Shown here piece by piece: positions 12,800 to 33,600 of a stretch of DNA of 37,179 bases. The notes beneath the pieces were generated by a model. It worked only from the letters and a program-made list of their open reading frames with translations, searched no databases and had not been told where the DNA came from. The first letter of the stretch is position 1; each line of letters opens with the position of its first letter. Position numbers and translations under genes: made by a program. Origin of the DNA: a virus (lineage: Duplodnaviria; Caudoviricetes); IMG/VR virus record IMGVR_UViG_3300032269_000625, positions 1 through 37,179 of that record; one strand, written 5' to 3'.

Positions 12800-12801
12800 C
12801 G

Positions 12802-12823
12802 CGGACTCCGGGCGTTTAAGGGA
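12802..12823 (+). promoter_or_regulatory. CGGAC-N7-GTTTAA motif, copy 1
   Basis: CGGAC tccgggc GTTTAA ggga, then ATG at 12824. Confidence 0.8.
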
Positions 12824-13858
12824 ATGATCGAAATATCCTACCGAGCCGACATTGAGACAAGAACACGCGACCTCCGAAAAAAGAAGCAAGAAGCCGAGGA
12901 GCTTTTCGATGGCATGGAGGCCGATATCGAGGAGTTTGAGCGGATCAAGATTGGTGAAGCCTTCGGGATCCCCAAGGAGGAGATGTTTAGGCAAGTCAGA
13001 GAATACGGACGCAAGGAAACGATCTCTATGTACGAGCTAACTGCACACAACTGTCAGAAGCTTGTCGATAATGACGATGGAACTGGATACATACTCGCTG
13101 AAAAGGGCGACCATCAAATGCCCTGCAAACGCAAAACCCCTTCTCAGCCAGATCTTGCAGATGGCATCTTCATCTATTCGGGCAACAGACCTAAAAAGGG
13201 GGCATACAACCACAAAGGGGTGAAGATTGAGTTTGATATCTGGAAAGCTCCAAACGGCCTCTGGTTCGGCGATCACTCCTCCACCTCCTGCTGTAGCAGT
13301 TGCTCCATAACCATTGACGATGTTGAGTGTGCGTTTGAGACGCAAAAAGAGGTCTTTGATTACTGCGTAAGAAGGGCAATCGAAAATCTATCCACTAAAG
13401 ATGTGGACAGAGACACGCAAGAGATAGAAGTCCAATGCCCAGACTGCGTGGCTTGGGCAAGGGAACACATCCAAGTCACCCAGCTAGAGGAAGGCGAGGA
13501 CGGCGAAAGGATTGCTGGGGCAACAGAAATGTGGAATCCAGACAAGCAATACAACCAAGTCGATTACAATGTTATCGGTTGCGAAATGAGGGAAGATAAT
13601 GAGGGCAACCCAACTCCAATCTTGAGTGAGTGCGAGACTTGTAACCACGAGAGGCCAGACAGCCCTTGGTTTGATGACAACAAGATTGAAAGGGATGAGA
13701 CCCCAGAAGAGACGGCAAAGCGGATAGCCGAGGAAGAGGCCACCCCAAAATACGGCAAGAACCAGTCAGATGTCGAAAAGCTGATTGCAAAGCTCAAGGC
13801 GATGCAGGGCATCTACTCTCACAAGACAAACGCTGCCCAGCTGGAGCTTGCCCTATGA
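12824..13858 (+). CDS. Hypothetical acidic protein with CxxC pairs
   Basis: 344 aa with CPDC and CETC, ending in QLELAL. Starts at motif copy 1. Confidence 0.8.
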   Translation: MIEISYRADIETRTRDLRKKKQEAEELFDGMEADIEEFERIKIGEAFGIPKEEMFRQVREYGRKETISMYELTAHNCQKLVDNDDGTGYILAEKGDHQMPCKRKTPSQPDLADGIFIYSGNRPKKGAYNHKGVKIEFDIWKAPNGLWFGDHSSTSCCSSCSITIDDVECAFETQKEVFDYCVRRAIENLSTKDVDRDTQEIEVQCPDCVAWAREHIQVTQLEEGEDGERIAGATEMWNPDKQYNQVDYNVIGCEMREDNEGNPTPILSECETCNHERPDSPWFDDNKIERDETPEETAKRIAEEEATPKYGKNQSDVEKLIAKLKAMQGIYSHKTNAAQLELAL

Positions 13859-14151
13859 GGGAAGGATCCAAGGTGGTTTGCGTAGATGCGGAGTTTCCCA
13901 AGGAAATCGTGAAGTTCTATACCGACCTCCCCAAGAAGGACGGCGTTTATACCATACGGACTATTGAGGTTGGCGTGGACTTGTCGGGACAAGCGGGCGA
14001 AGTGGCCGTGACCCTAACCGAGATTGTGAACCCAGTCTCCAAAACGCCTCCACACCGAGAAAGAGGTTTTCGCCAGGATCGGTTCCGGGAAGTCGAGCCT
14101 CCAAAGGCCGAAGCAGAGGTAGAGCGTCACCCAGTTGAGGAGCTGGCGTAG
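13855..14151 (+). CDS. Conserved phage hypothetical protein
   Basis: GSKVVCVD..F......LP....VYTIR...E.GF...RF pattern. Confidence 0.75.
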   Translation: MREGSKVVCVDAEFPKEIVKFYTDLPKKDGVYTIRTIEVGVDLSGQAGEVAVTLTEIVNPVSKTPPHRERGFRQDRFREVEPPKAEAEVERHPVEELA

Positions 14152-14173
14152 CGGACGGACGTTGTTTAAGGGT
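14152..14173 (+). promoter_or_regulatory. CGGAC-N7-GTTTAA motif, copy 2
   Basis: CGGAC ggacgtt GTTTAA gggt, then ATG at 14174. Abuts the upstream TAG. Confidence 0.8.
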
Positions 14174-14290
14174 ATGAAAAATAAAAACCGCACTAAGCAA
14201 TTCAAGCCCGACTGGAAGAAAATCAAGGAAAGACCAGAAATGAAGAAACTGGCTAAAGATCTTCTTAAGATTGGCTGGGTACTTAAATGA
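14174..14290 (+). CDS. 38 aa basic peptide
   Basis: MKNKNRTKQFKPDWKKIKERPEMKKLAKDLLKIGWVLK. Starts at the motif and has an ATGA overlap with the next gene. Confidence 0.6.
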   Translation: MKNKNRTKQFKPDWKKIKERPEMKKLAKDLLKIGWVLK

Positions 14291-14571
14291 GCGACAATAT
14301 CATTTTCTACTCAGACACCATAGGCAAAGAGGTTTCGACCACCAGATCCCCAAACTCCGCAGGGACAGACTGGGGCTTTGAGCATCTGCGACCCCTCCAC
14401 AAGGCGATATGTGCGGACATCGTAAAGAACCCAGACTCTAGTAACGGCGATGAGGAATACGGCCTCGTCTTTAAGTGCAGGGACGGAAAGATTCGCACAG
14501 CTTGGATTATGTGTGACCCAGAAGGCAACGGAGCAGGGCATCTGGACATCGTTGGAGGTGACGACAAATGA
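14287..14571 (+). CDS. Phage hypothetical protein (DPEGNGAGHL motif)
   Basis: Coupled ORF with the recurrent D.EGNG.G.L C-terminus. Confidence 0.7.
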   Translation: MSDNIIFYSDTIGKEVSTTRSPNSAGTDWGFEHLRPLHKAICADIVKNPDSSNGDEEYGLVFKCRDGKIRTAWIMCDPEGNGAGHLDIVGGDDK

Positions 14572-14834
14572 ACAAAACTAAACGCAGGGAAATTCACGAT
14601 GATAATTGGTACGGCAAGCAAGTAATACTGGTTTCTGAAAAGACCTTAAAACCTGTTTGCATCGGCCAAAGAGTAAAAGATTTTCGTGGAGACTCCGCCG
14701 TTATTACTGGAGGCCACGCACCTAGGAAGCCTTCATCAGAAGGGTATGTTGGAGTAAAAGACAGAGATTTTGAAATGTATTACTATGCGGGCGTGTATGA
14801 CTTGAAATGGGTTCTGAAAGAGGAGGCCAAATGA
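14568..14834 (+). CDS. Hypothetical protein
   Basis: Coupled ORF with a DFRGD...ITGG.AP.KPSS.G...YY..V..LKW pattern. Confidence 0.7.
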   Translation: MNKTKRREIHDDNWYGKQVILVSEKTLKPVCIGQRVKDFRGDSAVITGGHAPRKPSSEGYVGVKDRDFEMYYYAGVYDLKWVLKEEAK

Positions 14835-15070
14835 CTAAAATTAAATTCGAAATCACTTGGGAAGATGTCCAAGACATCGCCAAGGAGCGGGATGGGCAGA
14901 ACCTAAACAAGAAGCTGGCTTGCAGACTGCTGGCAGACATTGAAAGCGGAGTTCGTGGCTGGTTCGACCAGACCAATGGAGACGCAATTAGCGATTCGCT
15001 TACAATGTTCCTTCGGAACGGCGGGATCCGCACGAGCCTCGTGAATGCAACGATGCAGAAGGTGTCGTGA
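14831..15070 (+). CDS. Hypothetical protein
   Basis: ATG at 14831 (MTKIKFEITWEDVQ) overlaps the upstream stop. Confidence 0.65.
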   Translation: MTKIKFEITWEDVQDIAKERDGQNLNKKLACRLLADIESGVRGWFDQTNGDAISDSLTMFLRNGGIRTSLVNATMQKVS

Positions 15071-15086
15071 CGATGAGGGATCTGGC

Positions 15087-15317
15087 TTGAAATACCCCTT
15101 CATCCTCATCATCGGACGGCTCTCAGACGAGGAGAACACGCTGGCCGTCTACCAGAACACTACCTCGGAGATGGCTCGGAAAGCCTTCCACAAGCAACTT
15201 TGCGACATCTGGGAAGATCGCTCGGCAAGCAAGGATCTGATTATCGAGGCCGTGATTGCCTCCAACGAGCCTCCAAATGTCTTGGATAGCGATACAATGG
15301 TGCGAGCAAATCTATGA
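15087..15317 (+). CDS. Hypothetical protein
   Basis: Fills the gap and is coupled to the next gene. Start uncertain. Confidence 0.5.
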   Translation: MKYPFILIIGRLSDEENTLAVYQNTTSEMARKAFHKQLCDIWEDRSASKDLIIEAVIASNEPPNVLDSDTMVRANL

Positions 15318-15559
15318 AGAAGCCCTCCTTTAACTCTCGCTCCACAATCGCTCGGCTTGGCTGGCTTGCCTCCAAGTTTCGGAAGGATGGTCAAGTCGAT
15401 GGAACGCACAAGGTAGCCCTTGAATGGGAGTGTTCTTACAAGACAATCAATCGGGATATTGATGCCCTCCGTGACTTCTTCGGCTTTCCGATCACCTACG
15501 ACCCCAATCAATACAAGTGGCGAATCACGGGACAGATTCCCGAAGCCCGAATCCTTTAA
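15314..15559 (+). CDS. Stand-alone winged HTH resembling the N-terminus of WYL/YafY regulators
   Basis: IARLGWL...VALEWECSYKTINRDIDALRDFFGFPITYDP. No WYL domain follows. Confidence 0.75.
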   Translation: MKKPSFNSRSTIARLGWLASKFRKDGQVDGTHKVALEWECSYKTINRDIDALRDFFGFPITYDPNQYKWRITGQIPEARIL

Positions 15560-15581
15560 CGGACTTGCCCTGTTTAAGGGC
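15560..15581 (+). promoter_or_regulatory. CGGAC-N7-GTTTAA motif, copy 3
   Basis: CGGAC ttgccct GTTTAA gggc, then ATG at 15582. Abuts the upstream TAA. Confidence 0.8.
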
Positions 15582-15971
15582 ATGAAAACAAAAACACCTA
15601 CCCAAAACGAAAGAGGGCCGGACTTGTCCGACCGCCTTCTGGCCTTCACCTCTGGTTTACTTGGATTATCGGCTTCCCTCCCCGAAGATCGGGCTGGCGG
15701 TCACTTGGCCGAGCAACTCCTCCGCACGGCAACCGCTATCTACTTCCGCCACGGCGAAGCCGAGGGGTCTCCTTCCGCCAAGGCATTTGCCGACAAGTTC
15801 CGTGAGTGCCTCATCGAATTGAGGACGGCTCGCCGAGCCTTGCAACTCTTGGCTGCGACCAGCCTCCCTTGTGACGGCCAAGCTGTTCGCTCCCTGCTTG
15901 AAGATTCCGACATTCTCATTCGGATCTTCTTTTCCTCCATCCGAACACTCGAAGCAAAAGCGGGTGCATAA
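15582..15971 (+). CDS. Four-helix-bundle protein (23S rRNA IVS-protein / Avd-like fold)
   Basis: DLSDRLLAF......L...LP....G.HLAEQLLR.AT......EA....S...F..K....L.EL.....L.LL...LI.IF.SSIRT pattern. Confidence 0.85.
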   Translation: MKTKTPTQNERGPDLSDRLLAFTSGLLGLSASLPEDRAGGHLAEQLLRTATAIYFRHGEAEGSPSAKAFADKFRECLIELRTARRALQLLAATSLPCDGQAVRSLLEDSDILIRIFFSSIRTLEAKAGA

Positions 15972-16225
15972 TGGAAACTCAAATGGACATAAACGGCCAC
16001 GATACAAAAATTAAAATCAAGGAGATGATTGAGTTCACGGCAAAATCAAAGTCCGATGCGAACCCTTTTGGGATCAGCGGAAAGCTGATAAAAGTGGAAA
16101 AGCCCTTCATCGTTCTAATCAAGGTTGATCCTTGGGTTCTAATCAAGGTTGATCCTTGGAATTCCGAGCTACACCAGTTCGAGACAAGCGAAGAAGCGGG
16201 TGAGTTCATCGTGAGGCTGGCGTAA
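15971..16225 (+). CDS. Hypothetical protein with an 8-aa tandem duplication
   Basis: VLIKVDPW occurs twice in tandem. Confidence 0.65.
   Translation: METQMDINGHDTKIKIKEMIEFTAKSKSDANPFGISGKLIKVEKPFIVLIKVDPWVLIKVDPWNSELHQFETSEEAGEFIVRLA
16112..16159 (+). repeat. Perfect 24-bp tandem duplication
   Basis: gttctaatcaaggttgatccttgg, two copies. Confidence 0.95.
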
Positions 16226-16398
16226 TGGAGAGGGAATATAAAGTCTACGGAGTTCGGGAATACACTTCCTATGTGTGGGCAGACAGCGAGGACGATGCCG
16301 TAGAAAAAGCCGAGTCAGTCCCGCTCATTGATTGGGAGCCAAACGAAATCGTGGGCGAGGAGATTTGCCCGAAAGAAGCGTGCGAGGTAGGCGACTAA
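16225..16398 (+). CDS. 57 aa acidic protein
   Basis: MEREYKVYGVREYTSYVWADSEDDAVEKAE..., with TAATG coupling on both sides. Confidence 0.65.
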   Translation: MEREYKVYGVREYTSYVWADSEDDAVEKAESVPLIDWEPNEIVGEEICPKEACEVGD

Positions 16399-16583
16399 TG
16401 GACATCCGAACCGAGTATCGGCAAAAGCCAATCCCCTGGCGGTGCTTTGATTGGGAAGCCTACGACTACGACACCTTGGACGAAGATTCTCCTTATGGCT
16501 TTGGGGCAACCGAAGCGGAAGCCATTGAGTCGCTCCTAGAGCAAGTGGCGGATCTCCAAAACGAGCTGGTGACAGCGGACTAG
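16398..16583 (+). CDS. Small phage hypothetical protein
   Basis: MDIRTEY..KPIPWRCFDWEAY....D.DSP.GFGATEAEAI. Coupled start. Confidence 0.7.
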   Translation: MDIRTEYRQKPIPWRCFDWEAYDYDTLDEDSPYGFGATEAEAIESLLEQVADLQNELVTAD

Positions 16584-16600
16584 GAAAGTTAAAGGGCATA
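16576..16600 (+). promoter_or_regulatory. Motif copy 4 (GTTAAA variant)
   Basis: CGGAC taggaaa GTTAAA gggc ata, then ATG at 16601. Confidence 0.65.
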
Positions 16601-16828
16601 ATGAGTTCACACAGATGGATCGTTGAAGAAGTTGAAAACGGAGAGCGGAGCTTTGTCGTCTACAACCACGACAGAGAGGACACACCAGAATCCGAGTTCG
16701 AGTTCTATGACAGATACGAAACGATTGAAGAAGCGGTGAGGGCTTGCCGATACCACTACTGGGACTTCTACAAGTGGAATGATCTTCGGCCTCTCCAACC
16801 AGCGGACGCAGAGGGTTTAAGGGTATGA
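16601..16828 (+). CDS. Hypothetical protein
   Basis: 75 aa acidic ORF following the motif. Confidence 0.65.
   Translation: MSSHRWIVEEVENGERSFVVYNHDREDTPESEFEFYDRYETIEEAVRACRYHYWDFYKWNDLRPLQPADAEGLRV
16803..16824 (+). promoter_or_regulatory. Motif copy 5
   Basis: CGGAC gcagagg GTTTAA gggt, then ATG at 16825. Confidence 0.8.
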
Positions 16829-17187
16829 AAAAAGACCATCACAATCGAGAGGTTGTCCAACAACCCGACATTCCTTCACCCGCCGAGCTGGCATCCATCG
16901 CTGACGATCTGGAAAAACAGACCGAAAGCGTAGATCAGCTGGAGTTCTTGGTTACTATCCTTGACAAGCTGACCGAGCTTGACCCGAAGGCCAACGAGAC
17001 GGCCTCCAACTTCAAGTGGAAGCTGGAGTTTCACCCCTCCGACCTCCGCTTCCTATCCGACTCGCTCTCCAAGCTGGCAGACGGATTGGAGTATCACGAT
17101 ATGGAGTCGGACGGCGTTCTGGAATCCATCGAGCATATCCGTGAGATGCTCGCACTAAAGGCCACCAAGGCCGTAGGGAGGGCGTAA
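16825..17187 (+). CDS. Hypothetical helical protein
   Basis: 120 aa ORF starting at the motif. Confidence 0.7.
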   Translation: MKKDHHNREVVQQPDIPSPAELASIADDLEKQTESVDQLEFLVTILDKLTELDPKANETASNFKWKLEFHPSDLRFLSDSLSKLADGLEYHDMESDGVLESIEHIREMLALKATKAVGRA

Positions 17188-17435
17188 TGAAGATAAACAA
17201 CCAAGAAACTACGGCCAAGGCTTTCGCCTACGATGATTGCCACAAAATCTATCTGCTCGAAAGGGATTCAGATTGGAAAGACGCAAGCGGTAGCGGATAC
17301 ACCATACTGCCCATCGAGAAGCTGATTGAAACCTACGAGGTAAGTTGCGATCTGCGATTCATCTCAAACTGGGCATTGAACAAGCAATTTGTTCGGCAAT
17401 TTGAACCCGCAGCCTTTGACGAGGTTCTGGCGTGA
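17187..17435 (+). CDS. Conserved phage hypothetical protein
   Basis: FAYDDCHKIYL...GY...PI..L...Y..SC.LRFISNW pattern. Confidence 0.75.
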   Translation: MKINNQETTAKAFAYDDCHKIYLLERDSDWKDASGSGYTILPIEKLIETYEVSCDLRFISNWALNKQFVRQFEPAAFDEVLA

Positions 17436-17458
17436 CGGACGGCCGGAGTTGAACCTTT
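17436..17458 (+). promoter_or_regulatory. Motif copy 6 (GTTGAA variant)
   Basis: CGGAC ggccgga GTTGAA ccttt, then ATG at 17459. Abuts the upstream TGA. Confidence 0.7.
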
Positions 17459-17896
17459 ATGAAAACCAAAACACCCAAACTCAAAATAGACCAACCCGAA
17501 GTCCCCAAAACCCCACTCCGCCTCCTCGCCGATGCCTTGAGACCATACAAGGTGACGGATATGGAAGTCGATTTCGCTGGGTGTGGCGACTCTGGCGACA
17601 TCAATGACATTCGTTTCTACAAACTGAAGTCAGACAAAAGGGCGATGAGTGGCATTTCGCCTTCCGAGATTAATTACCAAGACATCCCCTCCGACCTCCG
17701 AGATGAGGCTCGTACGATTGCCAACTCGATCATCCTAAAGCTGTCTGGGGATTGGTGGAACAATGATGGCGGATATGGGTCTGTCCAAGTCGATTTCGTG
17801 AACGGCAAGGTCAGCCTCGAAGGCAACTACTACGAAATGCGTGTGAGCGAAACCGAAACCTTGGAAATGGATTTAGACTTAAAGCATCACGAATAA
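17459..17896 (+). CDS. DUF6878-like protein
   Basis: VDFAGCGDSGDI...WWNNDGGYG pattern, paired with the following DUF6915-like gene. Confidence 0.7.
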   Translation: MKTKTPKLKIDQPEVPKTPLRLLADALRPYKVTDMEVDFAGCGDSGDINDIRFYKLKSDKRAMSGISPSEINYQDIPSDLRDEARTIANSIILKLSGDWWNNDGGYGSVQVDFVNGKVSLEGNYYEMRVSETETLEMDLDLKHHE

Positions 17897-18273
17897 TGAA
17901 TCCATACCATCACGCTCTCTCCTCCTCCAAGAAGTTCGGTGGCCTCCCCGAAGATTACCAAGCCATCCACGATTGGTTTGATGAGTCCAAGATGATGTAT
18001 GCCAACTTCCGCCATCGTGCCTTACGGCATCACGCCGAGGGTTGCTATATGGCGGAGAGAATCTTCGGCCATACCATCACCACCTCCAACGGAAAAAACA
18101 TTCCGACCAGATGGGTTGCCGAACAGCACATCTTGGAAGATATGGGCTTCATTCCTTCAATGCAGGACTGGCTCTCCAACATCTCTGCTCAAGAATGGAT
18201 GAGGCCGAAGTTCGATAAGGCAGACCAACCCGCCACGCTCAAGACAACCAAGCTGGAGGTGAGCTTCAAATGA
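17896..18273 (+). CDS. DUF6915-like protein
   Basis: PYHHALSS.KKFGG.PEDY..IHDWFDESK...FRHRALRHHAEG...AEQHILED pattern. Confidence 0.8.
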   Translation: MNPYHHALSSSKKFGGLPEDYQAIHDWFDESKMMYANFRHRALRHHAEGCYMAERIFGHTITTSNGKNIPTRWVAEQHILEDMGFIPSMQDWLSNISAQEWMRPKFDKADQPATLKTTKLEVSFK

Positions 18274-18425
18274 CTTGGGAGGAACGAGTGACTCAACTGG
18301 AGGAGGAAGGTTGCACCCGAAGCGATGCCCAAGGGGGCGTAGATGTTGAGATTCTCAACGGATGGAGGCCATCCGACTTTCAGCCGTGGATGCTTCTCCC
18401 GAAAATCACGGACTCTCAAAGTTAA
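18270..18425 (+). CDS. 51 aa hypothetical protein
   Basis: MTWEERVTQLEEEGCTRSDAQG... Its stop codon is the TAA inside motif copy 7. Confidence 0.6.
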   Translation: MTWEERVTQLEEEGCTRSDAQGGVDVEILNGWRPSDFQPWMLLPKITDSQS

Positions 18426-18431
18426 AGCTGT
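18409..18431 (+). promoter_or_regulatory. Motif copy 7 (GTTAAA variant)
   Basis: CGGAC tctcaaa GTTAAA gctgt, then ATG at 18432. Confidence 0.7.
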
Positions 18432-18995
18432 ATGATCGACCTATCCAAAGTCCAATCGAAGGCCAACAAAACCAAGTCGGCCAAAACCGAGAAACTATCC
18501 ATCCCTGCCAACCCCGAACTGGTAGACTCCTTTGCGGAGGCCAAGGAATCCTATGCCTCTGCCGAAGGGGCGTTTGAGGTTGCCAAGCAACAGCTCCTCG
18601 CCGAAGTGACTCTGCCGTGGTTCAAGACCATCGCCGACCTAGCCAAGGCCAACCAAGAAGTGCCGTCCTCTGGCGTTCTGCTTGGCAAGTCCAAGGTTTG
18701 CCGTTTGACAATGACAAAGCGGTATCCAGTTATCGAAACCGCCCCCAGCGGATTGGAGCAACACTTCCGCCAAGCGTTCACATTCAAAATTGACGGCTCG
18801 AAGTTGCCACCCGCAACCGCTCAAGAGTTCGTCAATCGCTTGACCGAGCTTCTGCCGTTGGCTGGCGATGCGGTGGACATTAAAATCGGCGTGACTCCGA
18901 CTCCCAGCTTCCACACGGAGCGAGCCAAACTGCTCACGCCCGATGGCAACATTGAGTTCCAGAAAATCTGCCCTGCCGTTATCTATGTCGCTTAA
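18432..18995 (+). CDS. Hypothetical protein
   Basis: 187 aa ORF starting at the motif. Confidence 0.75.
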   Translation: MIDLSKVQSKANKTKSAKTEKLSIPANPELVDSFAEAKESYASAEGAFEVAKQQLLAEVTLPWFKTIADLAKANQEVPSSGVLLGKSKVCRLTMTKRYPVIETAPSGLEQHFRQAFTFKIDGSKLPPATAQEFVNRLTELLPLAGDAVDIKIGVTPTPSFHTERAKLLTPDGNIEFQKICPAVIYVA

Positions 18996-19617
18996 AACTG
19001 AATCCGTGCCGTTGCAGTTCTATCCTGCTCGGCCTACCAACTGGCCTAACTCTCGGAATGTCCTGCCCGCAAAATGTTGGGCGTGTGAGCCAAAAATTAA
19101 CGGCTGGCGAATCATTGTAGATACCGAGCTTCGCCAAGTCTGGAACAGACACGGCAAAATCTTTTCCCACGCCGACAAGGTGCTGGATATTCTTTCCCCA
19201 CTTCTCGCCACTTGGAACGCATCACGCTTTCTGGACGGCGAGTTTCTTGGACTCCGCACCAAGTTCGGAAAGGATTGTGTTGTTCTGTTTGACTCAATGG
19301 ATTTGAACGACTCGACTTCCTACGAGATTCGCAAGACCCGACTGATGGACGCAATCGGGGAAAGTCCCCTACAAATGTTTGACTGGAACAAGGGGCTTTC
19401 GCCAATCAGCTATTTGCCCGACTGCTTGCCTTCTGGAATAAGCTGTTGGGGTGTCTCGAATTGGATGGAGAGCTTTAACAAGGAGGTTGGCGAGGATTTC
19501 TTTGAGGGCTGGGTTTTCAAAGATCGTGGGGCTTATCCGTGGCAACGCACGGCCACCGCTCATTCCGCTCAATGGATTAAAGACCGCTACATTGTCCCAA
19601 GGGGTGACGGACTCTGA
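18985..19617 (+). CDS. ATP-dependent ligase-like nucleotidyltransferase (adenylation domain only)
   Basis: Motifs I EPKINGWR, Ia NRHGK, III LDGEF, IIIa VLFD, IV EGWVFK and V WIK. No OB domain. Confidence 0.8.
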   Translation: MSLKTESVPLQFYPARPTNWPNSRNVLPAKCWACEPKINGWRIIVDTELRQVWNRHGKIFSHADKVLDILSPLLATWNASRFLDGEFLGLRTKFGKDCVVLFDSMDLNDSTSYEIRKTRLMDAIGESPLQMFDWNKGLSPISYLPDCLPSGISCWGVSNWMESFNKEVGEDFFEGWVFKDRGAYPWQRTATAHSAQWIKDRYIVPRGDGL

Positions 19618-19629
19618 TCGTTTAATGTT
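19608..19629 (+). promoter_or_regulatory. Motif copy 8
   Basis: CGGAC tctgatc GTTTAA tgtt, then ATG at 19630. Confidence 0.8.
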
Positions 19630-19842
19630 ATGAACCAAATTAACATAGACAACGCCGTTGCCTTGGCATCGGAAAAAACCGCTGGCTTTGACGAGATTCG
19701 CCAAGCCGTTCTCATCTTGGGAATGGAATTGGGCAGACTCCAAAAAGCCAAACAGATTGAACAAGACCGACTCGACTGGGAGATGTCGGACTATTACTCA
19801 AGCCTACACGAGTTCCCATTCAAACGGACGGAGGCCGTTTAA
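19630..19842 (+). CDS. Hypothetical protein
   Basis: 70 aa. Starts at copy 8 and ends on the TAA of copy 9. Confidence 0.65.
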   Translation: MNQINIDNAVALASEKTAGFDEIRQAVLILGMELGRLQKAKQIEQDRLDWEMSDYYSSLHEFPFKRTEAV

Positions 19843-19846
19843 CTTT
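19825..19846 (+). promoter_or_regulatory. Motif copy 9
   Basis: CGGAC ggaggcc GTTTAA cttt, then ATG at 19847. Confidence 0.8.
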
Positions 19847-20230
19847 ATGACTACAACCACAGACCTAATCCAGCACACCGACCAGATACGAAACCTTAAC
19901 GACTACTTCCGCAAGCATCCAGAAAAGTGGAAGTGGAACGGCGAAAACCTTGGGAGGATTGTTATGACAAGAGGCGTTCAGTCCTTACTCAATGACAAGT
20001 CTCCAGTATTGTCGGCGGAATTGATGGACAAGGTTCAAACCTTCGACTCCTTTGATGAGGGCAACGATCCACACGGCGAACACGATTTCTTTGCCTTCGA
20101 CTTCCGTGGCAAAAAGCTATTCGCCAAAATCGACTACTACGACACCAATTACGAATACGGCTCACCGAATCCCGCTGACCCCTCTCAAACTCGCCGAGTG
20201 CTGACCCTTATGCTTTCGGAGGAGTATTGA
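19847..20230 (+). CDS. DUF3768-family protein
   Basis: IRNLND.FR, MTRGV, NDPHGEHDF, KIDYYD, GS.NPADP..TRRVLTLML.EEY. Confidence 0.85.
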   Translation: MTTTTDLIQHTDQIRNLNDYFRKHPEKWKWNGENLGRIVMTRGVQSLLNDKSPVLSAELMDKVQTFDSFDEGNDPHGEHDFFAFDFRGKKLFAKIDYYDTNYEYGSPNPADPSQTRRVLTLMLSEEY

Positions 20231-20299
20231 GTGGAGTTCGTTCTCTTGTTTGCGATCTTTAGCGTCTCCGTGTTTCTGATCTGGCTTGCGGGACGCTGA
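20231..20299 (+). CDS. Possible 22 aa hydrophobic peptide
   Basis: GTG right after the DUF3768 stop. Translation VEFVLLFAIFSVSVFLIWLAGR. Confidence 0.3.
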   Translation: MEFVLLFAIFSVSVFLIWLAGR

Positions 20300-20356
20300 C
20301 AGACTTCGCTCAAACTTGCCACGCCCAGAAGGCCACTCGCAAGTTTTGTCAATCGC

Positions 20357-20392
20357 TGGCTTGGCGAGAGCAATAAATCCAAGCCACTTTTT
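20357..20392 (+). terminator. Possible intrinsic terminator
   Basis: TGGCTTGG-N14-CCAAGCCA followed by CTTTTT, directly before motif copy 10. The loop is unusually long. Confidence 0.35.
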
Positions 20393-20414
20393 CGGACGGC
20401 AAGCGTTTAAGGTT
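20393..20414 (+). promoter_or_regulatory. Motif copy 10
   Basis: CGGAC ggcaagc GTTTAA ggtt, then ATG at 20415. Confidence 0.8.
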
Positions 20415-20840
20415 ATGACAACCTACAAATTGAATCCATACGCAGACATCAACGGCACTTACAAAGTAGCCACACTCAAAACAACCTTCGGGCAACTCTT
20501 GGCAGTTTTCGGGATGCCCGAAGAATCAGACGGCTACAAGTCCAGCGGAGATTGGCTTTTCAGTTCGGACAATGGCGACACTTTCACCATCTACGACTGG
20601 AAGGCCACGAATCTCTATGATTCCAGCTTACCCAGCGTGGAGGACTTTCGGCGTTCAGCCGAGGTCGTGGAGTTTTCCGTTGGTGGCCGTGGCGATGCTT
20701 CCCAGTTCCTATCTTGGGTATCTTGGCTGATAAACGAATTGACACCCGAAGCGGTGCAGTTGGCTGTTTTTGAACACTTGGACAAGAATGGGTGGAAGCC
20801 GTCTTTGATGTCGGCCAGTTGGCGGACGCTTGCGGTTTAA
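20415..20840 (+). CDS. Conserved phage hypothetical protein
   Basis: L.AVFG.P...DGYK....W......FTIYDWK...FSVGG pattern. Ends on the TAA of copy 11. Confidence 0.75.
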   Translation: MTTYKLNPYADINGTYKVATLKTTFGQLLAVFGMPEESDGYKSSGDWLFSSDNGDTFTIYDWKATNLYDSSLPSVEDFRRSAEVVEFSVGGRGDASQFLSWVSWLINELTPEAVQLAVFEHLDKNGWKPSLMSASWRTLAV

Positions 20841-20844
20841 GTTT
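20823..20844 (+). promoter_or_regulatory. Motif copy 11
   Basis: CGGAC gcttgcg GTTTAA gttt, then ATG at 20845. Confidence 0.8.
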
Positions 20845-20994
20845 ATGACAACACAAATGATTGAAGCCCAAGTCGGAGGGGCAGAAGTCTCCGACTCTTT
20901 GTATCTCTTATTTGTCGCTCCGTGGAAATGCCAGATCACGAAGGAGCAGATGGAGGAGATCGAGGCAGAGGAGTGCGAGCCGTTGATTGACTAA
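20845..20994 (+). CDS. 49 aa acidic peptide
   Basis: MTTQMIEAQVGGAEVSDSLYLLF..., starting at the motif. Confidence 0.55.
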   Translation: MTTQMIEAQVGGAEVSDSLYLLFVAPWKCQITKEQMEEIEAEECEPLID

Positions 20995-20995
20995 A

Positions 20996-21118
20996 ATGAA
21001 GATCAACAAAATCAAAACCGAAGCCTTGCAGAAACTAAAAACGGAGCTGGAGCAGACCCAAAAAAACTCTGCTTACTTCCAGCACATCACCGAAGAATTA
21101 CAAAGGAGGAACAAATGA
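20996..21118 (+). CDS. 40 aa helical peptide
   Basis: MKINKIKTEALQKLKTELEQ...ELQRRNK. ATGA overlap with the next gene. Confidence 0.5.
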   Translation: MKINKIKTEALQKLKTELEQTQKNSAYFQHITEELQRRNK

Positions 21119-21354
21119 AAGACCGCAGTTTCAGCGAAATGCTACAAGCCAGAATTGACCAGATCAACCGCAGACAAGAGCGGAACAGAAAAGCGATGAT
21201 GGACGCTATCAGACGAGTTGAGCAACGGAAAGCCATCGAGCGGGAAGCGATGGAATCAAACGGCACGGATGGATTGCAACCGAGCCAGTTTTTTGAACCC
21301 GCCGAGATGGGGCAGATGAAGCCCATCAGATTGAGCGAGCTGGTCAGCAAATAA
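21115..21354 (+). CDS. Hypothetical coiled-coil protein
   Basis: 79 aa, with AGGAGG upstream. Confidence 0.65.
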   Translation: MKDRSFSEMLQARIDQINRRQERNRKAMMDAIRRVEQRKAIEREAMESNGTDGLQPSQFFEPAEMGQMKPIRLSELVSK

Positions 21355-21369
21355 CGAAAGGAGGTTCAA

Positions 21370-21543
21370 ATGTTCAAGCTAGAAATCAAAACGGCCAACG
21401 AGGCATTTAGCGATCACCCGCATTGGGAGATTGCCCGAATCCTTAAAAAGTTGGCAGAGAAGTTGGAAAATGAGGTGTTCGATGATTCGTGCGTTCTTGT
21501 CGATATTAACGGCAACAGCGTGGGCAAGGCGGTTTGGAAATAA
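21370..21543 (+). CDS. 57 aa conserved phage protein
   Basis: MFKLEIKTANEAF....EIARILKKLAEKL...DINGNSVG. AGGAGG SD upstream. Confidence 0.75.
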   Translation: MFKLEIKTANEAFSDHPHWEIARILKKLAEKLENEVFDDSCVLVDINGNSVGKAVWK

Positions 21544-21591
21544 GGAAAGGAAAGGCGGGGCGGGGAAGTGACTAACCCGAAACCCCAAAGA

Positions 21592-21614
21592 CGGACGGCA
21601 TCGGTTTAATGGGT
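21592..21614 (+). promoter_or_regulatory. Motif copy 12
   Basis: CGGAC ggcatcg GTTTAA tgggt, then ATG at 21615. Confidence 0.8.
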
Positions 21615-22118
21615 ATGACAACACAATTCGCCGAAATTAACCCAGAAACCGCAACCCAAACGACTGACGCAGTTTGTCCAGTAGGCAAATGGAGGGGAAC
21701 GCCCATCAGCCAAATGCCCGAACCCACCTTGCGTTGGTTCGCTAAAAACTGGCAAGCAAACCCCCGATACTCTGACAGCGTGGCTTTCCGTGAAGCCGTG
21801 GACGCTTGGCTTATCGCCCACCCCGAACCCCAGAAGATCACAAGGGAAGGGATGTTTAGGGACGAGCAAGGCCGTGTATTCCGTGTCCAACAAGCACAAG
21901 CGGGGCATCTTTACGCCCTTATGCTTGAACCCGCATCGGGGCAGTTCGTTTATATCCGAGGCTCGATGGCTGGACTCAGCGAGACCAGCCGACTGACCCT
22001 TGACGAGTGCAAGGCAATCGGAAAGGCAATCGGGCGGTGCGTGGTATGCGGTGCAAGGCTGACTGACCCAGCCAGCGTAGAGCGGGGCATCGGCCCGATC
22101 TGTGCAAACAAAATCTAG
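21615..22118 (+). CDS. DUF6011-like zinc-ribbon protein with an N-terminal domain shared with ERF
   Basis: C-terminal CVVCGARLTDPASVERGIGPIC. N-terminal CPVGKWRGTPISQMP...W is QSregVF_b/DUF3820-like. Confidence 0.8.
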   Translation: MTTQFAEINPETATQTTDAVCPVGKWRGTPISQMPEPTLRWFAKNWQANPRYSDSVAFREAVDAWLIAHPEPQKITREGMFRDEQGRVFRVQQAQAGHLYALMLEPASGQFVYIRGSMAGLSETSRLTLDECKAIGKAIGRCVVCGARLTDPASVERGIGPICANKI

Positions 22119-22125
22119 GCAGGGA

Positions 22126-22154
22126 ATGGGCAGAGGTTCGACCCCTTTGCCCAT
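22126..22154 (+). other. 11-bp hairpin with a tRNA T-loop-like 7-nt loop
   Basis: ATGGGCAGAGG-TTCGACC-CCTTTGCCCAT (one G-U pair), 7 nt after the stop codon. Confidence 0.6.
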
Positions 22155-22492
22155 CGACTCACCCACGCAAATGGGGGAGGTGGTGCGAGATGGCAAGGAT
22201 TTACGCAGGACAGCCCGAAAGGGGAGGATTTCGGGCGGAAGCAGGGCAACACAAGAGGCCGAAAGGCCGATGCCACCCAGACCCACCCCCGAAATCCACA
22301 CGCCAAAGTTCAACGGATAACGTAATATAATTGAATAGGGTTCCCTGCCCCCCCCCCAACATTTTATTTAACCAGGAGTCCCTAAAATCAGACCCACCCG
22401 GTATAATTTTTTTAGGCAGCCGGAGTCCCATTTTTGTGCCACCCCCCATATATTTTTTTTGACGCAGATAAGCAAATAGGCAAAGTCAAGAA

Positions 22493-22636
22493 ATGGACAA
22501 GGAACTGGAATCAGTTGAGGGCTTCTTGAATGCAGAAAAAGTGCTTTCTAGGGATCCGTTAGACTTTGATGACGCTAATAAGAATCGGATTGATGACCGG
22601 CTTGAGCCGAAATCCGAGATCCCACCCCAAAATTAA
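22493..22636 (+). CDS. Possible 47 aa protein
   Basis: MDKELESVEGFLNAEKVLSRDPLDFDD..., preceded by TTGACG-N16-CAAAGT-N6. Confidence 0.35.
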   Translation: MDKELESVEGFLNAEKVLSRDPLDFDDANKNRIDDRLEPKSEIPPQN

Positions 22637-23076
22637 AATCAACGCTAAGGCCTCTGGGAGGCCGTATAAATGATCTGAATTAGCAAATAGGGTGGTGTAT
22701 CCATTTGGTATATCGGACCATTTTTCAGGGATAACTATCTACTGCAAATATAGTTTGATCTTTATTATTAAGCATTTGTAGAAGCTAGTGTTAAATTGAT
22801 ATTTTAGTACCCGATAGCAACCCTTCTTTCCCCCTTGCATCCCCCTATCATCTGAAACTTAAATATAACTACCTTACTTATGGGTTATGTTATAACAGGA
22901 AATCTATCTTTAATACTGTATGATTAAGTGTAACCTTTATACATGTTGTAACATATATGTTATACTCCTGATCTGTAACTATTATGGAGAGATTTAAGAG
23001 AACCAATGTTGATAGTGAAGGCTATCTGGATACTAACACTAATTTAGTTAGCTATATTGAATTGGGTTAGTTTTTG

Positions 23077-23098
23077 CGGACGAAATATGTTTAAGGTT
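23077..23098 (+). promoter_or_regulatory. Motif copy 13
   Basis: CGGAC gaaatat GTTTAA ggtt, then ATG at 23099. Confidence 0.8.
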
Positions 23099-23524
23099 AT
23101 GAAAAATATAATACTGCTAACACTAGCCCTAACCCTCAACCTAAACGCCGGTGATCGGCCGCCACCTTGGCAAGCAATTGAACCCATGCGTAAGTATGGC
23201 GGAACCCAGCTGGTCAAAGTCAAAGAACGGGACGCAACCCTTGACGAAGTTAAGGCTTATGGTGATCTGGCACGGCGGGTTCCTGCGCACCTTATTTCCG
23301 AGGTGTCTTGTTATATGCCCGACTACTTGAAGGAGTTCTTTGTTAACGGCAAAAAGATGCCCGGCGCCCCATTCCCATCGGCTTACTGCTGGGACCGTTT
23401 TTATGCCGACGTTAATGCTGGCAAGAAGGTTCCCCTGCATTTGCGTCACATCGACAACTACAACAAATCCCAAGAGAAGTTCTTTAAGGACAATCCCGGA
23501 TCCAGACCCGAGGAGATCAAATGA
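23099..23524 (+). CDS. Putative exported protein
   Basis: Signal-peptide-like MKNIILLTLALTLNLNA. Starts at the motif. Confidence 0.7.
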   Translation: MKNIILLTLALTLNLNAGDRPPPWQAIEPMRKYGGTQLVKVKERDATLDEVKAYGDLARRVPAHLISEVSCYMPDYLKEFFVNGKKMPGAPFPSAYCWDRFYADVNAGKKVPLHLRHIDNYNKSQEKFFKDNPGSRPEEIK

Positions 23525-24147
23525 TTAACATCACCCCACGCAAAGTAGCGATCTACACCAGGGTTTCTACGGACGATCAAGACACCGCACTTCAGACAAC
23601 TGAGCTGCTTGAGTATTCCAAAAAACGCGGATGGGAGCCGATCTTGTTTGAGGACCACGGAATATCTGGAGCCAAGTTTGACCGACCAGCCCTAAACAAA
23701 ATGATGGATGCGGTTCGCTCAGGATCCGTAGATCTTGTGCTGACTTGGAAGCTTGATCGGATGGGTAGGTCAACCCAGCATCTAGCCGGAATCATTAACG
23801 AGCTTTTGGATTCTGATGTTGGTTTAGTCGTTCCAACCCAAGGTATCGATACGTCCGCTGGCTCAATCAATCCTGCCAGCAAACTTCAACTTAACGTGTT
23901 GGCGGCCGTGGCTGAGTTCGAGCGCGACTTGATCCGTGAACGAACTAAAGCTGGTATGAAAGCTGCCAAGTCTCGTGGGATCCTCATTGGTCGCAAAACC
24001 ATCGTGACTGAGGAACAGCTTGCCCACGCAAAACTTTTGGTTAGCACAGGCAACGACGTGACGATTCGCCATATTGCTACATCGGTTGGGGTTTCCCGCG
24101 GGACCGCATGGAGGCTCCGTCGCAAGATCGAGGACGGCTTAGTATGA
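23521..24147 (+). CDS. Small serine recombinase (resolvase/invertase family)
   Basis: YTRVSTDDQ catalytic Ser, DRPAL, KLDRMGRS, AEFERDLIRERTKAG and a C-terminal HTH. Confidence 0.95.
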   Translation: MINITPRKVAIYTRVSTDDQDTALQTTELLEYSKKRGWEPILFEDHGISGAKFDRPALNKMMDAVRSGSVDLVLTWKLDRMGRSTQHLAGIINELLDSDVGLVVPTQGIDTSAGSINPASKLQLNVLAAVAEFERDLIRERTKAGMKAAKSRGILIGRKTIVTEEQLAHAKLLVSTGNDVTIRHIATSVGVSRGTAWRLRRKIEDGLV

Positions 24148-26632: not shown

Positions 26633-26636
26633 CAAG

Positions 26637-30669: not shown

Positions 30670-33600
30670 ATGTCCTTACCCGATTTTGGCGGAACTGGAA
30701 CTGACGGCAAGCCAGAGGATAACTTTGGCGGGCCAGAACCAGAGTTCGCGCCAAGGACAAGAGGTGAGGCTAGGGCGCTCGAGCAAGAGCAGACCGGGAA
30801 AATTAAGGAAGCTACAAAAGCGTACAACTACGGGTCAGAACAAGCCCTTGAAGAGGCTGGTATCAAGTATAAGAAGGACGAGCAAGGTTTTGTTCAGCCC
30901 CGCTACGCTCCAAATAATGAATTTGGAAGATCTATTGAGTTTGGCACTTCAGAGTTTCGCGATCCAATTACGGATGAGCAAAGGCAAATAGACGAGACAG
31001 GAAAGGTAAAGCCAAGGAAGCGCCAAAACGTATCCTATCGAGCTGGAGATGCAAATAATCCGAACTACCCAAATCCATCCCGGCTATACAGGGTGTACGC
31101 ACGCGAGCAGGACGCTGGCATCGCGGATCCAAACCAACCATTTGCAGCAACCAAAGCAGAGGATATTGGAAGTGCCTTCGACTTGCAGGGAGTTTCGGAT
31201 CAGGGCATTTCATCGCTGGCCAAGGAGACCGTAAGGAAGAATAGGCAATACGAGCTTGGTTCGGCCAAGTCAGTATTAGACGCAAGAGGTCAGCAGTTGG
31301 ATGTCGAGTCAGAGACGCTCAAATCCCAGATCGACACCCTTAACCAAACGCCGATCCCAGATTGGCAACCCGATGGCGACAAGATGGATCCAGCCATTGC
31401 CTCCGAGGTTGGAGGAAAGGCTGACGCCAAATCCAGACAAGATGCAGCAGCAAGAATTGGGATGTCTAGGGATCAGAAAATTGCAGATTTCAGCTCACAG
31501 CTGGCCGAAAAGAATAAAGAAAGAATCCGCAATCGCGCCCTTCAGGTTGAGCTTCAGTCCCAGATGTCGCTCGATGAAGGCGAATCGATCTACGACAACC
31601 GCGTTCAACAGCTTCTAAAGAATGGGGCAAAACAAGAGGATATTGATAAGGATCCGCTTATCGGAGCCATCCGAGAGGGGCTGACAAACATTCAGAAGCC
31701 TGTTCTGCCTTTGTCGGAGGTTTTTAAGGATCCGACATTAACCCCGCAGGCCATTTATGAGACAAGGGCATCTCAGCGAGAAAAGGGTAGAATTGAGGCC
31801 GAGGGAAGACTTGCCAAGGAAAAGGCCACAGAATTTCTAAAGCCATTCATTGAGCAAGCAACCGACACGTCCATCAGCTACACGACTCTGGCTGGGCGCA
31901 GAAACAGACTTTCATCGGTCTACAACAAGCTTTTGGATGACGCTGATGCGGCCGACACGAAGCAAAAGGGATCCGGATTAAACCTTAGAGCGCAAGCGTC
32001 TGGGTACGCCGAAGCCATTGGAGTTCTGGATGACCAGCTTAGTAAGGTTGGCAAGCAAGCCACAATTGCCGAGCAAAGCGCAAAGATCCAAGGCGAGTTT
32101 GCCAAAGAAAACGAAAAGAGAGTTCAGCAGGAGTTGCAGGGCAGGCTTACAAAACTTGAGCAAGAAACAAAGCAAAAGGTTGAAAAGCTAAAGCAACGCC
32201 GAGGACTAGAGGATGGAACCTTTATGGGACCGCCGGCTCCTGGTGATGTGCCTCCGGCCACTCCAACGCAAGGGACGCCACCAACTCAGCCTACGCCTAC
32301 GACGCCTCAACCACAGCCCGAAAGCCCGACAAGCTGGTTCAAAGGTGGTCTCAACAACCTATTCAGCAAAGACACGATGCGACAAGCGGCTCGAGGATAC
32401 TTCGAGCTAAATCAGAAGTTTGCTTCTGGTATTTACCTTTCCGCTGCAAACGCATTAAGACTTCGCGGAAAAGAGGTGCCGATATCGGGAGGTAAGCTCA
32501 AGACAGCTGGGGCTGCCTTTGTTGACGCCATGACTACATCGCCATCTATGCCCGCCAAAGTTATGGCGGTTCTAAGCATGGTTGATAGGCAGTTTGGCGG
32601 GAAACTTCACAACAGGGCGGCCAAGTTCTTTGAGGAATCTGCAACCGCAGCCAAAGAGAACGAGACGGCAATCCGTGAAGAGAAGTTCCTTGGACTTGAG
32701 CCAGTAAGCCCAGAGTGGCGCGAAAGCGATGTCGGCCAAGTGGTCAAATCTTTGACAGAGCTTCCGTTTTATATTGGCACAACAATGATCAATCCGGCTG
32801 TCGGATTTATTGCAACATTTGGCACATCTTATGATGATGCAATTCAAAACCAGCTAAACGCGGGTGTGAAGAACCCGGATCATGTTACGGCTTTAGCTGA
32901 AGCAATCCCGGTGGCGGCCTTTGAAAGCCTAGGGAATTTGGTCGAATTAGGGCTGGCAAAGTCGTTAGGGAAAAAGTTTATCCAAAACCTTGAGAGCATG
33001 ACAGCCAGAAGCCTTCGAGGGCTTTTTGCAAGCGCATCTCTGAAGATCGGGGGAGGTGCCGTAACCGAAGGAATGGAAGAAGGCGTCCAGCAATTTTGGT
33101 CAAACATGATTGCCAAGCATATCGGCAAATTCGATCCCAATAGACCGCTAGATAAAGACGTTTGGAAGAGCGTTAAAGTTGCGATGTGGGCTGGTGGAGC
33201 CGGAGTTACCGCAATGGGAGGCGGATCTGTTGCCCTGACAGGCGCACAGAATTACCTCAACGAGCGTGGCCTCAAGAAACAGGCCGACGAAATGAAGGCA
33301 GCCACAGAGGATATTCCAGCTAACGGATGGGAAGACTGGGGAAATAAACTTCCAGAGCAAATACTGGATCCTGGACTAGCCGAAAGCTTTGGCGAAATCA
33401 GTGCTGATCTTGACGAGCAACAAGGGAAGTTCCTAGTTGATTTGGCTGACAGCATCAAGGGTGCGCCATTCAGAAGATTGCTAGATCTTGGCAAATCAAT
33501 TGACGAAAGCCTCATTCAACCCCCTGCGCTCCAGAGCCGAGCGGCCGGGATCCTGACCGGAGCCAAAAATGAGCAATTGATTGGCGAGGCAAATTTATAT

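What the first reader, a model, noticed from the sequence alone, without database searches (positions are those of the whole stretch)
12802..23101. 13-copy CGGAC-N7-GTT(T/A/G)AA-N4/5-ATG element punctuating the accessory gene array
Seen: 13 same-strand copies begin at 12802, 14152, 15560, 16576, 16803, 17436, 18409, 19608, 19825, 20393, 20823, 21592 and 23077. CGGAC is invariant, the spacer is always 7 nt with free sequence, and GTTTAA is exact in 10 of 13. The ATG follows after 4 nt (9 copies), 5 nt (3 copies) or 7 nt (1 copy, which has ATA at the usual position). I see no conservation upstream and no SD, and I noticed no copies in the replication or structural arms. The geometry matches neither sigma70 (-35/-10) nor sigma54 (-24/-12). 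Inference: a compact promoter class that I do not recognise, producing leaderless or near-leaderless mRNAs and defining one regulon of about 30 small genes. It could be read by a dedicated activator, an alternative sigma or a virion-delivered factor.
Basis: partly seen in the sequence, partly recalled or inferred. Interest (0 to 1): 0.9.

Follow-up and report, generated by a model that had tools for sequence, protein, structure and literature searches.

The report
Compact promoters for a virion-borne sigma
Thirteen copies of a two-box DNA signal sit at a fixed distance before gene starts in this uncultured phage, and relatives swap the signal's letters together with a sigma-factor-like module buried in their giant particle-type protein, so the phage likely injects its own promoter-reading factor and uses promoters one DNA turn shorter than normal.

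Summary
Observation confirmed: 13 same-strand CGGAC-N7-GTT(T/A/G)AA copies at the stated places (15 looser matches, 0.76 expected), boxes conserved and spacer free in a sister phage. Relatives carry two other motifs with the same geometry (AAAAC-N7-gTAATT-N5-ATG; RCAAC-N6-GGAC-N8-ATG), nearly exclusive between clades. The giant DarB-like ORF, cut off in this contig, holds in relatives a sigma70-family segment (sigma2, linker, sigma4), bracketed by a repeated peptide word; it is 62-99% identical within and 13-19% between motif classes. The boxes resemble ECF -35 (AAC/GAC) and -10 elements, with GTT where sigmaH has it if RNA starts at the ATG, but 10-11 bp closer together. Best reading (0.55): early, leaderless promoters read by a virion-delivered sigma on host polymerase. 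Integrase, repressor and host-regulon readings fared badly. No RNA start was mapped, pairing rests on three clades confounded by descent, the class II sigma call is weak, and three relatives have the sigma without such a motif. The scan had already noted sigma-like modules in giant virion proteins and 7-bp-spacer promoters on other DNA; here the two meet in one family. Not found in print in nine searches.

The parts
12802..12826 (+). element 1 (first box, 7 nt, second box, 4 nt, ATG) ahead of a 344-aa ORF
14152..14176 (+). element 2, begins directly after the upstream stop codon
15560..15584 (+). element 3, ahead of a four-helix-bundle gene (TIGR02436, E 4.6e-7)
16576..16603 (+). element 4 (GTTAAA; ATG after 7 nt)
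16803..16827 (+). element 5, wholly inside the upstream coding sequence
17436..17461 (+). element 6 (GTTGAA; 5 nt), ahead of DUF6878 and DUF6915 genes
18409..18434 (+). element 7 (GTTAAA; 5 nt), ahead of a 187-aa gene shared by all three motif classes
19608..19632 (+). element 8
19825..19849 (+). element 9, ahead of a DUF3768 gene
20393..20417 (+). element 10
20823..20847 (+). element 11
21592..21617 (+). element 12 (5 nt), ahead of a DUF6011 gene
23077..23101 (+). element 13, ahead of a 141-aa gene coupled to the serine resolvase gene 23521-24147
12824..24147 (+). array of about 30 small genes; element genes open each block, most others are stop-start coupled or SD-led
30670..37179 (+). first 2,170 codons of the giant DarB-like virion-type ORF, cut by the contig end; the sigma-like segment lies about 1,300-1,400 codons beyond the cut and is read from relatives G006 (L044:1501-2325) and G001 (L029:1316-2140)

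Best explanation
The 13 elements are likely early, phage-specific promoters read by a sigma70-family module that is predicted to enter the cell as part of the phage's giant virion-type protein and to dock on host RNA polymerase. Shown: fixed geometry, box conservation, clade-specific replacement of the boxes, and a sigma2-linker-sigma4 segment in the giant protein of every relative where it can be seen. Inferred steps: (1) the giant protein is packaged and injected; (2) it is cut at a recurring peptide word that brackets the segment, freeing a protein of about 270 residues; (3) sigma2 melts the downstream box (GTTTAA) and RNA starts at or within a base or two of the ATG, giving leaderless messages; (4) the upstream box (CGGAC) is read one helical turn closer than a normal -35, most likely by the sigma4 helix-turn-helix, whose turn carries an insertion in the motif-bearing clades. 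Step 4 is the least certain.
For: Unbiased gapped-word search ahead of ATGs gave three motif classes in the same genomic block with the first box ending 17-18 nt before the ATG: class I in the window and G001, class II in G002 (21 sites) and G009 (20), class III in G007, G008, G013, G014, G015. ATG-anchored counts over 18 records are nearly exclusive: class I 13 and 12 in its two records, one chance site in unrelated G003, 0 in the other 15; class II 21, 20, 1 (G017); class III 4-12 in its five records and single sites in G004 and G009. Scanning six giant proteins in 139 chunks, TIGR02937 (sigma70-ECF) hit one place in five: G011 and G010 at 65 bits (cut-off 42.9), G013 E 1.3e-6, G012 1.4e-6, G001 2.3e-3; near-window G006 gave 1.6e-4. 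The class I model (pLDDT 58.5) matched sigma2 over residues 4-114 (8b3z Z 8.6, rmsd 3.3, 78 aligned; 1sig Z 8.0) and sigma4 over 164-241 (5fgm Z 6.5), sigma factors filling the top nine rows. Segment identity is 92-99% in class I, 62% in II, 94-99% in III and 13-19% between classes, against 58-69% for capsid; G017, 25-28% to class II, shows a class II element. Sigma2 and sigma4 parts are the best-kept blocks of the giant between G001 and G004 (96 and 94% against 66-88%). Repeated words bracket the segment (G001 3466/3739; G013 3367/3633; G002 1024/1453). In the sigmaH open complex the -35 GGAAYA lies at -34..-29 and GTT follows a 17-bp spacer, i.e. at -11..-9 (10.1101/534826, passages); class I has GTT at -10..-8 or -11..-9 from the ATG. 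ECF promoters typically carry AAC at -35 and CGT/CGTA/CGAC at -10 (PMC5758882, passages), echoing classes II and III. No stand-alone sigma or RNA polymerase in 108 ORFs of G002 and G007 or in 62 window ORFs.
Against: No transcription start was mapped; RNA-library contigs bridge elements and cannot show starts. The window itself ends before the segment. Three clades are three data points, and kin share both traits. G010, G011 and G012 have the clearest sigma domains but no compact motif was found in them. The class II call is weak: G002 E 0.003-0.013, no sigma hit for G009 or G017, Foldseek gave no sigma row and VIA only middling rows mixed with unrelated helical proteins (best sigma row Z 6.3). 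Class I scores stay under the family cut-off, Z 8.6 is within the range that helical bundles reach by arrangement, and Foldseek E-values were 0.1 or worse. The linker is of normal or greater length, and sigma4 is normally held on the beta flap tip with 14-17 bp spacers, so reading at about -20 needs a new arrangement. Classes II and III share the first box (RAACA) though their sigma4 helices are unalike. A second, normally spaced motif lies ahead of late genes and could be the sigma's real target. Packaging and cleavage of the giant protein are inferred from gene position, DarB-like domains and repeated words only.
Confidence: 0.55

Rival explanations
1. The elements are promoters, but the embedded sigma is not, or not alone, the reader: either sigma2 reads only the downstream box while another domain or protein reads the upstream box (as MotA does for T4 middle promoters, recalled), or the sigma serves the normally spaced late motif and another phage factor serves the compact sites.
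For: Normal linker length and flap-tip tethering argue against sigma4 at -20. Class I has GCGGCAC-N15-G(T/C)T ahead of portal, scaffold and other late genes, sharing GTT with the compact element. G010-G012 have a sigma without compact sites. The first box is shared by classes II and III.
Against: The late heptamer is the same in classes II and III although their sigmas are 13-14% identical, and its genome-wide counts hardly exceed shuffles. The small ribbon-helix-helix protein groups G001 with class III (48%) rather than with the window (30%), against the motif grouping; three other window HTH genes are missing from some motif-bearing phages. The giant protein has many unannotated modules, so another reader in it is not excluded.
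Confidence: 0.2
2. The upstream box is the -10 element, RNA starts near the second box, and the second box is a short 5' leader or translation-start signal like the start-associated sequences of cluster K mycobacteriophages.
For: Seven free bases between the boxes equal the usual -10-to-start distance; element genes are those not coupled to an upstream stop; in class III the second box (aaAGGAC, 8 nt before ATG) partly resembles an SD; SAS elements lie 3-7 bp before ATG in one orientation in non-structural regions (PMC3203893, passages).
Against: The second box differs wholly between clades, unlike a host-ribosome signal, while true SD sites occur in the same genomes; it leaves the conserved sigma4 without any target, since nothing upstream is conserved; the elements form no stable shared hairpin.
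Confidence: 0.12
3. The elements are oriented operators of a phage repressor (stoperator-like), silencing the array in a lysogen.
For: The window encodes a tyrosine integrase; all copies face one way; GAC-N7-GTT is a loose dyad.
Against: No integrase match in 6 of 6 class II and III records tested, four of them 99-100% complete, while motif-less G010-G012 have it; an operator gives no reason for a distance to ATG fixed to one base in most sites; no HTH or RHH gene tracks the classes.
Confidence: 0.06
4. The elements are recombination sites that let single genes move as cassettes.
For: Window-G001 homology blocks end at or 20-43 nt after several elements, so genes are swapped right behind the ATG; a serine resolvase is present in all motif-bearing records tested and absent from G010-G012.
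Against: The 7-nt spacer is free (28 of 84 positions differ), five elements lie partly or wholly inside coding sequence, the boxes are too short and asymmetric for res-type sites (recalled), the resolvase is about 60% identical across classes whose boxes differ and is itself behind an element, and the integrase is absent from two classes.
Confidence: 0.03

Closest known systems
Thermus phage P23-45 gp96 (virion RNA polymerase fused to the tape measure protein) and its pre-early motif (10.1101/2022.12.01.518664, passages)
   Same: A transcription module inside a giant virion protein; a repeated motif at early genes present in relatives with the fusion.
   Different: There a whole two-barrel polymerase with DxDxD; here no such catalytic motif stood out in the giant proteins and the module is a sigma that would need host core.
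Phage phiEco32 gp36, a two-domain phage sigma (PMC12276001, passages)
   Same: Phage-encoded sigma2+sigma4 protein redirecting host core polymerase to phage-specific promoters; podovirus with an SU10-type portal as here.
   Different: gp36 is a stand-alone gene for middle and late transcription, reads AATGTA at -11.5 with its C-terminal domain at -35; no mention of virion delivery (0 occurrences of 'virion').
ECF (group 4) sigma factors, e.g. M. tuberculosis sigmaH, B. subtilis sigmaW/X (10.1101/534826; PMC5758882; passages)
   Same: Two-domain layout; AAC-like upstream box; GTT/GTA/GAC-like downstream box at about -11.
   Different: Spacer 6-8 instead of 14-17 bp; insertions in sigma2 and in the sigma4 turn; embedded in a 3,600-5,700-residue protein.
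Polyvalent proteins / P1 DarB (PMC5512222, passages)
   Same: Giant multidomain late-region protein with SF2 helicase (AAA_34, Helicase_C_4) and ParB-like parts, presumed injected and in some cases self-processed.
   Different: 'sigma' and 'promoter' occur 0 times in that paper's main text.
Start-associated sequences of cluster K mycobacteriophages (PMC3203893, passages)
   Same: Oriented repeats a few bases before ATG in the non-structural arm.
   Different: SAS is one 13-bp block containing AGGAG; here two boxes with a free spacer and no SD core in classes I and II.

Membership tests
sigma70 family (protein segment) | sigma2 four-helix domain | tested here: met
   class I model matches 8b3z, 1sig, 5h6x over residues 1-114, Z 7.6-8.6; moderate confidence; class II inconclusive
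sigma70 family (protein segment) | sigma4 helix-turn-helix C-terminal to sigma2 | tested here: met
   5fgm Z 6.5 over 164-241; TIGR02937 alignment runs into region 4
sigma70 family (protein segment) | score above the curated TIGR02937 cut-off (42.9 bits) | tested here: not met
   class I 18-21 bits, class II 15-17, class III 28; met only by G010 and G011 at 65 bits
sigma70 family (protein segment) | binds core RNA polymerase and directs initiation | not testable with these tools
   needs biochemistry
ECF-type promoter | AAC-like upstream box and group-specific -10 box | tested here: met
   logos against passages; class I has GAC, not AAC
ECF-type promoter | spacer of 14-17 bp | tested here: not met
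   6-8 nt in all three classes; 14-17 bp quoted in PMC5758882
ECF-type promoter | RNA starts about 9-11 nt after the first base of the -10 box | not testable with these tools
   only assembled contigs were available
sigma70/sigmaA housekeeping promoter | TTGACA-16/18-TATAAT | tested here: not met
   8 sites in 11000-24300 against 10.5 in shuffles, none at an element
virion RNA polymerase systems (N4, P23-45) | polymerase catalytic domain in the virion protein | tested here: inconclusive
   no conserved DxDxD or T7-type motif by pattern search and no polymerase family hit in 139 chunks other than an intein-borne match in a G012 terminase ORF; remote forms are not excluded
polyvalent / DarB-like virion proteins | giant late-region protein with SF2 helicase module | tested here: met
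   PF13871 E 1.2e-17, PF13872 in G001 giant
polyvalent / DarB-like virion proteins | present in the particle and injected | not testable with these tools
   no cultured relative; best INPHARED terminase match 29.6%
tyrosine-recombinase core site | co-occurs with the integrase and keeps a matching overlap | tested here: not met
   integrase absent from 6 of 6 class II/III records; spacer free

The most novel reading that the evidence does not exclude
A family of freshwater podoviruses packages a sigma factor as a cleavable module of a giant virion polyprotein; on entry it takes over host core polymerase and reads a new promoter architecture, an ECF-like -35/-10 pair compressed by one helical turn (about -20/-10) that starts leaderless messages, and sigma and promoter letters have been re-coded together at least three times, giving mutually orthogonal sigma-promoter pairs invisible to host sigmas.
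Probability: 0.4. Interest if true: 0.92.

Novelty: new variant of a known kind. Interest (0 to 1): 0.8.

Why it matters
It would give phages a third way to start early transcription, beside host-type promoters and a packaged polymerase: inject only a sigma. It would also break the rule that two-domain sigma70-family factors need a 14-17 bp spacer, and offer three natural sigma-promoter pairs, each promoter under 25 bp, that can be cross-tested in vitro with a 270-residue protein and short DNA templates.

Tried and rejected
Alternative genetic code for the ORF-poor right end: rejected, it is one open frame running off the contig. Packaged RNA polymerase: no catalytic motif found. Search of 1.84 billion representatives with the class I segment returned only its own cluster; the word-indexed search returned 7 proteins, all 93-100% identical, so no intermediate sigma types were found. 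Complex prediction of class I sigma2 with a beta-prime clamp stretch of Akkermansia RpoC gave 'no answer' (0.26, mark 0.32); not used as evidence. RNA runs: four lake-water runs held small shares (0.05-0.11); their contigs cover and bridge elements of relatives but cannot show starts, strand or level. Collection scan with the class II pattern gave mostly chance AT-rich hits. The class I hit in G003 (L007, L008) is a single site in an unrelated prophage with no protein match to the window. Scans for further motif classes with an early gene and terminase in metagenomes gave only classes I-III; four metagenome records were not held for whole-record search. Host regulon: class I pattern with ATG gave 15 matches in 13 of 95 genomes of the order of bin G022 (at most 3 per genome; reversed-pattern control 5; about 22 expected for 376 Mb at equal base use, my arithmetic); that order is not shown to be the host's. 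Host: only hints of the PVC group (2 of 3 named four-helix-bundle hits are Verrucomicrobia bins; G022 has a TIGR02989 sigma). A normally spaced counterpart motif in G010/G011 was sought and not found; the top word pair there is a palindrome. Shared RNA hairpin: energies 0 to -4.6 kcal/mol in 12 of 13.
Full report
Observation. The window is a whole 37,179-base phage contig: a minus-strand replication arm, an integrase at 8849-9928, a plus-strand array of small genes, a serine resolvase, a terminase and a giant ORF running off the end. A matrix scan finds nothing comparable elsewhere in the window (13 sites at 18-24 bits, next 10.1). Against the complete sister G001, 3 of 132 box positions and 28 of 84 spacer positions differ in 12 orthologous copies. 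Five elements overlap the upstream coding sequence and four begin within 3 nt of its stop, so all the information is in 18 bases plus the distance to ATG. Of 33 array genes listed, the 13 with an element are mostly those not coupled to an upstream stop; the other 20 are mostly coupled or SD-led.

Relatives. Pattern and protein scans found the family in IMG/VR; no cultured relative exists in INPHARED (best terminase match 29.6%). I fetched 17 records whole or in part (one, G003, proved unrelated and served as control) and ran one unbiased gapped-word search ahead of ATGs on them and the window. It returned the window's motif in the window and G001 (class I), AAAAC-N7-gTAATT-N5-ATG in G002 and G009 (class II, 21 and 20 sites), and RCAAC-N6-GGAC-N8-ATG in G007, G008, G013, G014 and G015 (class III). 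It returned no such motif in G010, G011 and G012, and nothing in fragments lacking the array (G004, G006 part, G016, G017, G018). In every class the AAC/GAC box ends 17-18 nt before the ATG in most sites (class I 34 of 37 regex sites at 17 or 18 and 29 at 17; class II 39 of 41 at 18; class III 38 of 42 at 18) and nothing upstream is conserved. Classes are nearly exclusive between records. Same geometry with different letters points to a phage-encoded reader that changes with the site.

The candidate reader. The giant ORF (5,648 residues in G001) has DarB-like helicase modules. Reading it by eye showed a sigma-like stretch at 3466-3740. NCBIfam gave TIGR02937 as the only or best hit (E 1.5e-3 in G001, 1.6e-4 in G006); G006 is 86-97% identical to the window over 22.5-37.2 kb and carries the last element, so it stands in for the missing end of this contig. 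A blind scan of six giants in 139 chunks hit that family at one place in five of them, above the curated cut-off in G010 and G011. The ESM Atlas listed sigma clusters at 0.95-0.96 (a lead only). The AlphaFold model of class I (pLDDT 58.5) matched sigma2 and sigma4 in the right order; Foldseek ranked sigma chains first but at E 0.1 or worse. Class II is weaker. A short peptide word repeated 3-8 times in each giant brackets the segment in classes I and III and, with a longer N-terminal part, in class II; I read it as a cleavage signal, which is inference. The segments are 62-99% identical within and 13-19% between motif classes while capsids are 58-69%. The span between the two helices of the sigma4 motif is 28 residues in class I, 20-23 in class II and G017, 31 in class III, against 16 in G011 and 18 in G012: insertions go with compact motifs, on few independent points.

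Geometry. In the sigmaH open complex the -35 GGAAYA is at -34..-29 and GTT follows 17 bp later, at -11..-9 (10.1101/534826, passages). Class I has GTT at -10..-8 (9 copies) or -11..-9 (3 copies) from the A of ATG, which fits a start at the ATG, but only 7 nt separate GGAC from GTT where sigmaH has 18 from GGAAC: 11 bp less. ECF promoters typically have AAC at -35, CGT, CGTA or CGAC at -10, and 14-17 bp spacers (PMC5758882, passages; -35 boxes also in PMC8103513, passages); classes II and III look like such pairs shortened by about 10 bp. Both papers stress that sigma4 is tied to the flap tip and that spacing is rigid, which is the main difficulty for my step 4 and the reason for the first rival.

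Rivals. The integrase is missing from all 6 class II and III records tested and present in the motif-less ones, which removes the lysogeny and tyrosine-recombinase readings. The small RHH regulator and three HTH genes do not follow the classes; the resolvase follows presence of motifs but not their letters. No stand-alone sigma or polymerase was seen in 108 ORFs of G002 and G007. The class I pattern is at chance level in 95 bacterial genomes of one candidate order. A second motif with normal spacing lies ahead of late genes; it could be the sigma's target, though it is shared by classes II and III whose sigmas are unalike. G010-G012 keep a sigma without compact sites, so the module does not require this geometry. 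RNA data could not place a start.

Known systems and novelty. Phage sigmas (phiEco32 gp36, PMC12276001, passages; jumbo-phage sigmas, PMC7824862, passages) and virion-borne transcription enzymes (P23-45, 10.1101/2022.12.01.518664, passages) are known, as are DarB-like virion proteins (PMC5512222, passages; Lalka27a, 10.64898/2026.04.20.719267, passages) and start-associated repeats (PMC3203893, passages). Nine full-text searches showed no paper on a sigma inside a virion protein or on a sigma promoter one turn short; the library lacks most subscription papers and I read no supplements. This scan's own notes report sigma-like modules in giant virion proteins of other phages and 7-bp-spacer or otherwise compact promoters, several in Verrucomicrobia phages; none matched this DNA or protein. 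They came after my own tests of the segment and are unchecked leads, not support. What this family adds is a two-domain module, three parallel motif classes that change with it, and a defined geometry.

Verdict. The feature is real and under selection. It works most likely like an ECF promoter read by a phage sigma, but is not a member of the ECF promoter class (spacer test not met), and the sigma segment of this clade falls under the family cut-off. Promoter function about 0.85, the embedded sigma as reader about 0.65-0.7, the full model 0.55. Interest 0.8.

Noticed in passing
window 11217, 24308, 28707 (+); G001 3615, 8964, 27819, 34380, 55058; G004 33711, 14529, 7641: Second motif GCGGCAC-N15-G(T/C)T, with the ATG often 35-36 nt after the second box, ahead of portal, scaffold and other late genes; classes II and III have GCG(A/T)CGC at the same places. 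Counts hardly exceed shuffles; the case rests on position.
   Followed up: partly
window 30670-37179; G001 giant ORF 10921-27867: A four-residue word recurs 7-8 times in the class I giant protein, with other words in classes II and III, at module borders; possible self-processing polyprotein, with a zincin-like HExxH stretch just after the sigma segment in G001 (seen by eye).
   Followed up: partly
G002 giant ORF, residues 1453-1582 (L035:137-526, minus strand): A second sigma4-like module follows the sigma segment in G002 (TIGR02937 E 0.0018, 38% to the first), bracketed by the same word; not seen in G009.
   Followed up: no
G011 and G010, genome-wide (e.g. G011 2859, 9280, 23557, 46135, 56350): Palindromic TTGT(C/T)-N-ACAAC sites, several overlapping TTGACA-type promoters ahead of late genes; likely operators in these integrase-bearing phages.
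   Followed up: no
window 12838, 14180, 15560, 16846, 17456, 18409, 19633: Homology blocks with G001 begin or end at or just after elements: genes are exchanged directly behind the ATG while the element stays.
   Followed up: partly
window 22320-23060: AT-rich non-coding stretch with C and T runs between elements 12 and 13; possible origin or genome end.
   Followed up: no
window 367-2392 (-) and 11860-12603 (+): UDP-galactopyranose mutase, SET-domain and two DUF3431 genes in a small phage.
   Followed up: no
window 15314-15559 (+): Lone winged-HTH gene (HTH_11, E 0.013) found in none of the ten relatives tested.
   Followed up: partly
G012 14925-17939: Terminase-like ORF carrying an intein.
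   Followed up: no
G001 52643 and 60973: Two weaker class I sites with the ATG further off (14 and 8 nt), one with an SD between, ahead of the integrase; a possible leadered use of the same promoter.
   Followed up: no
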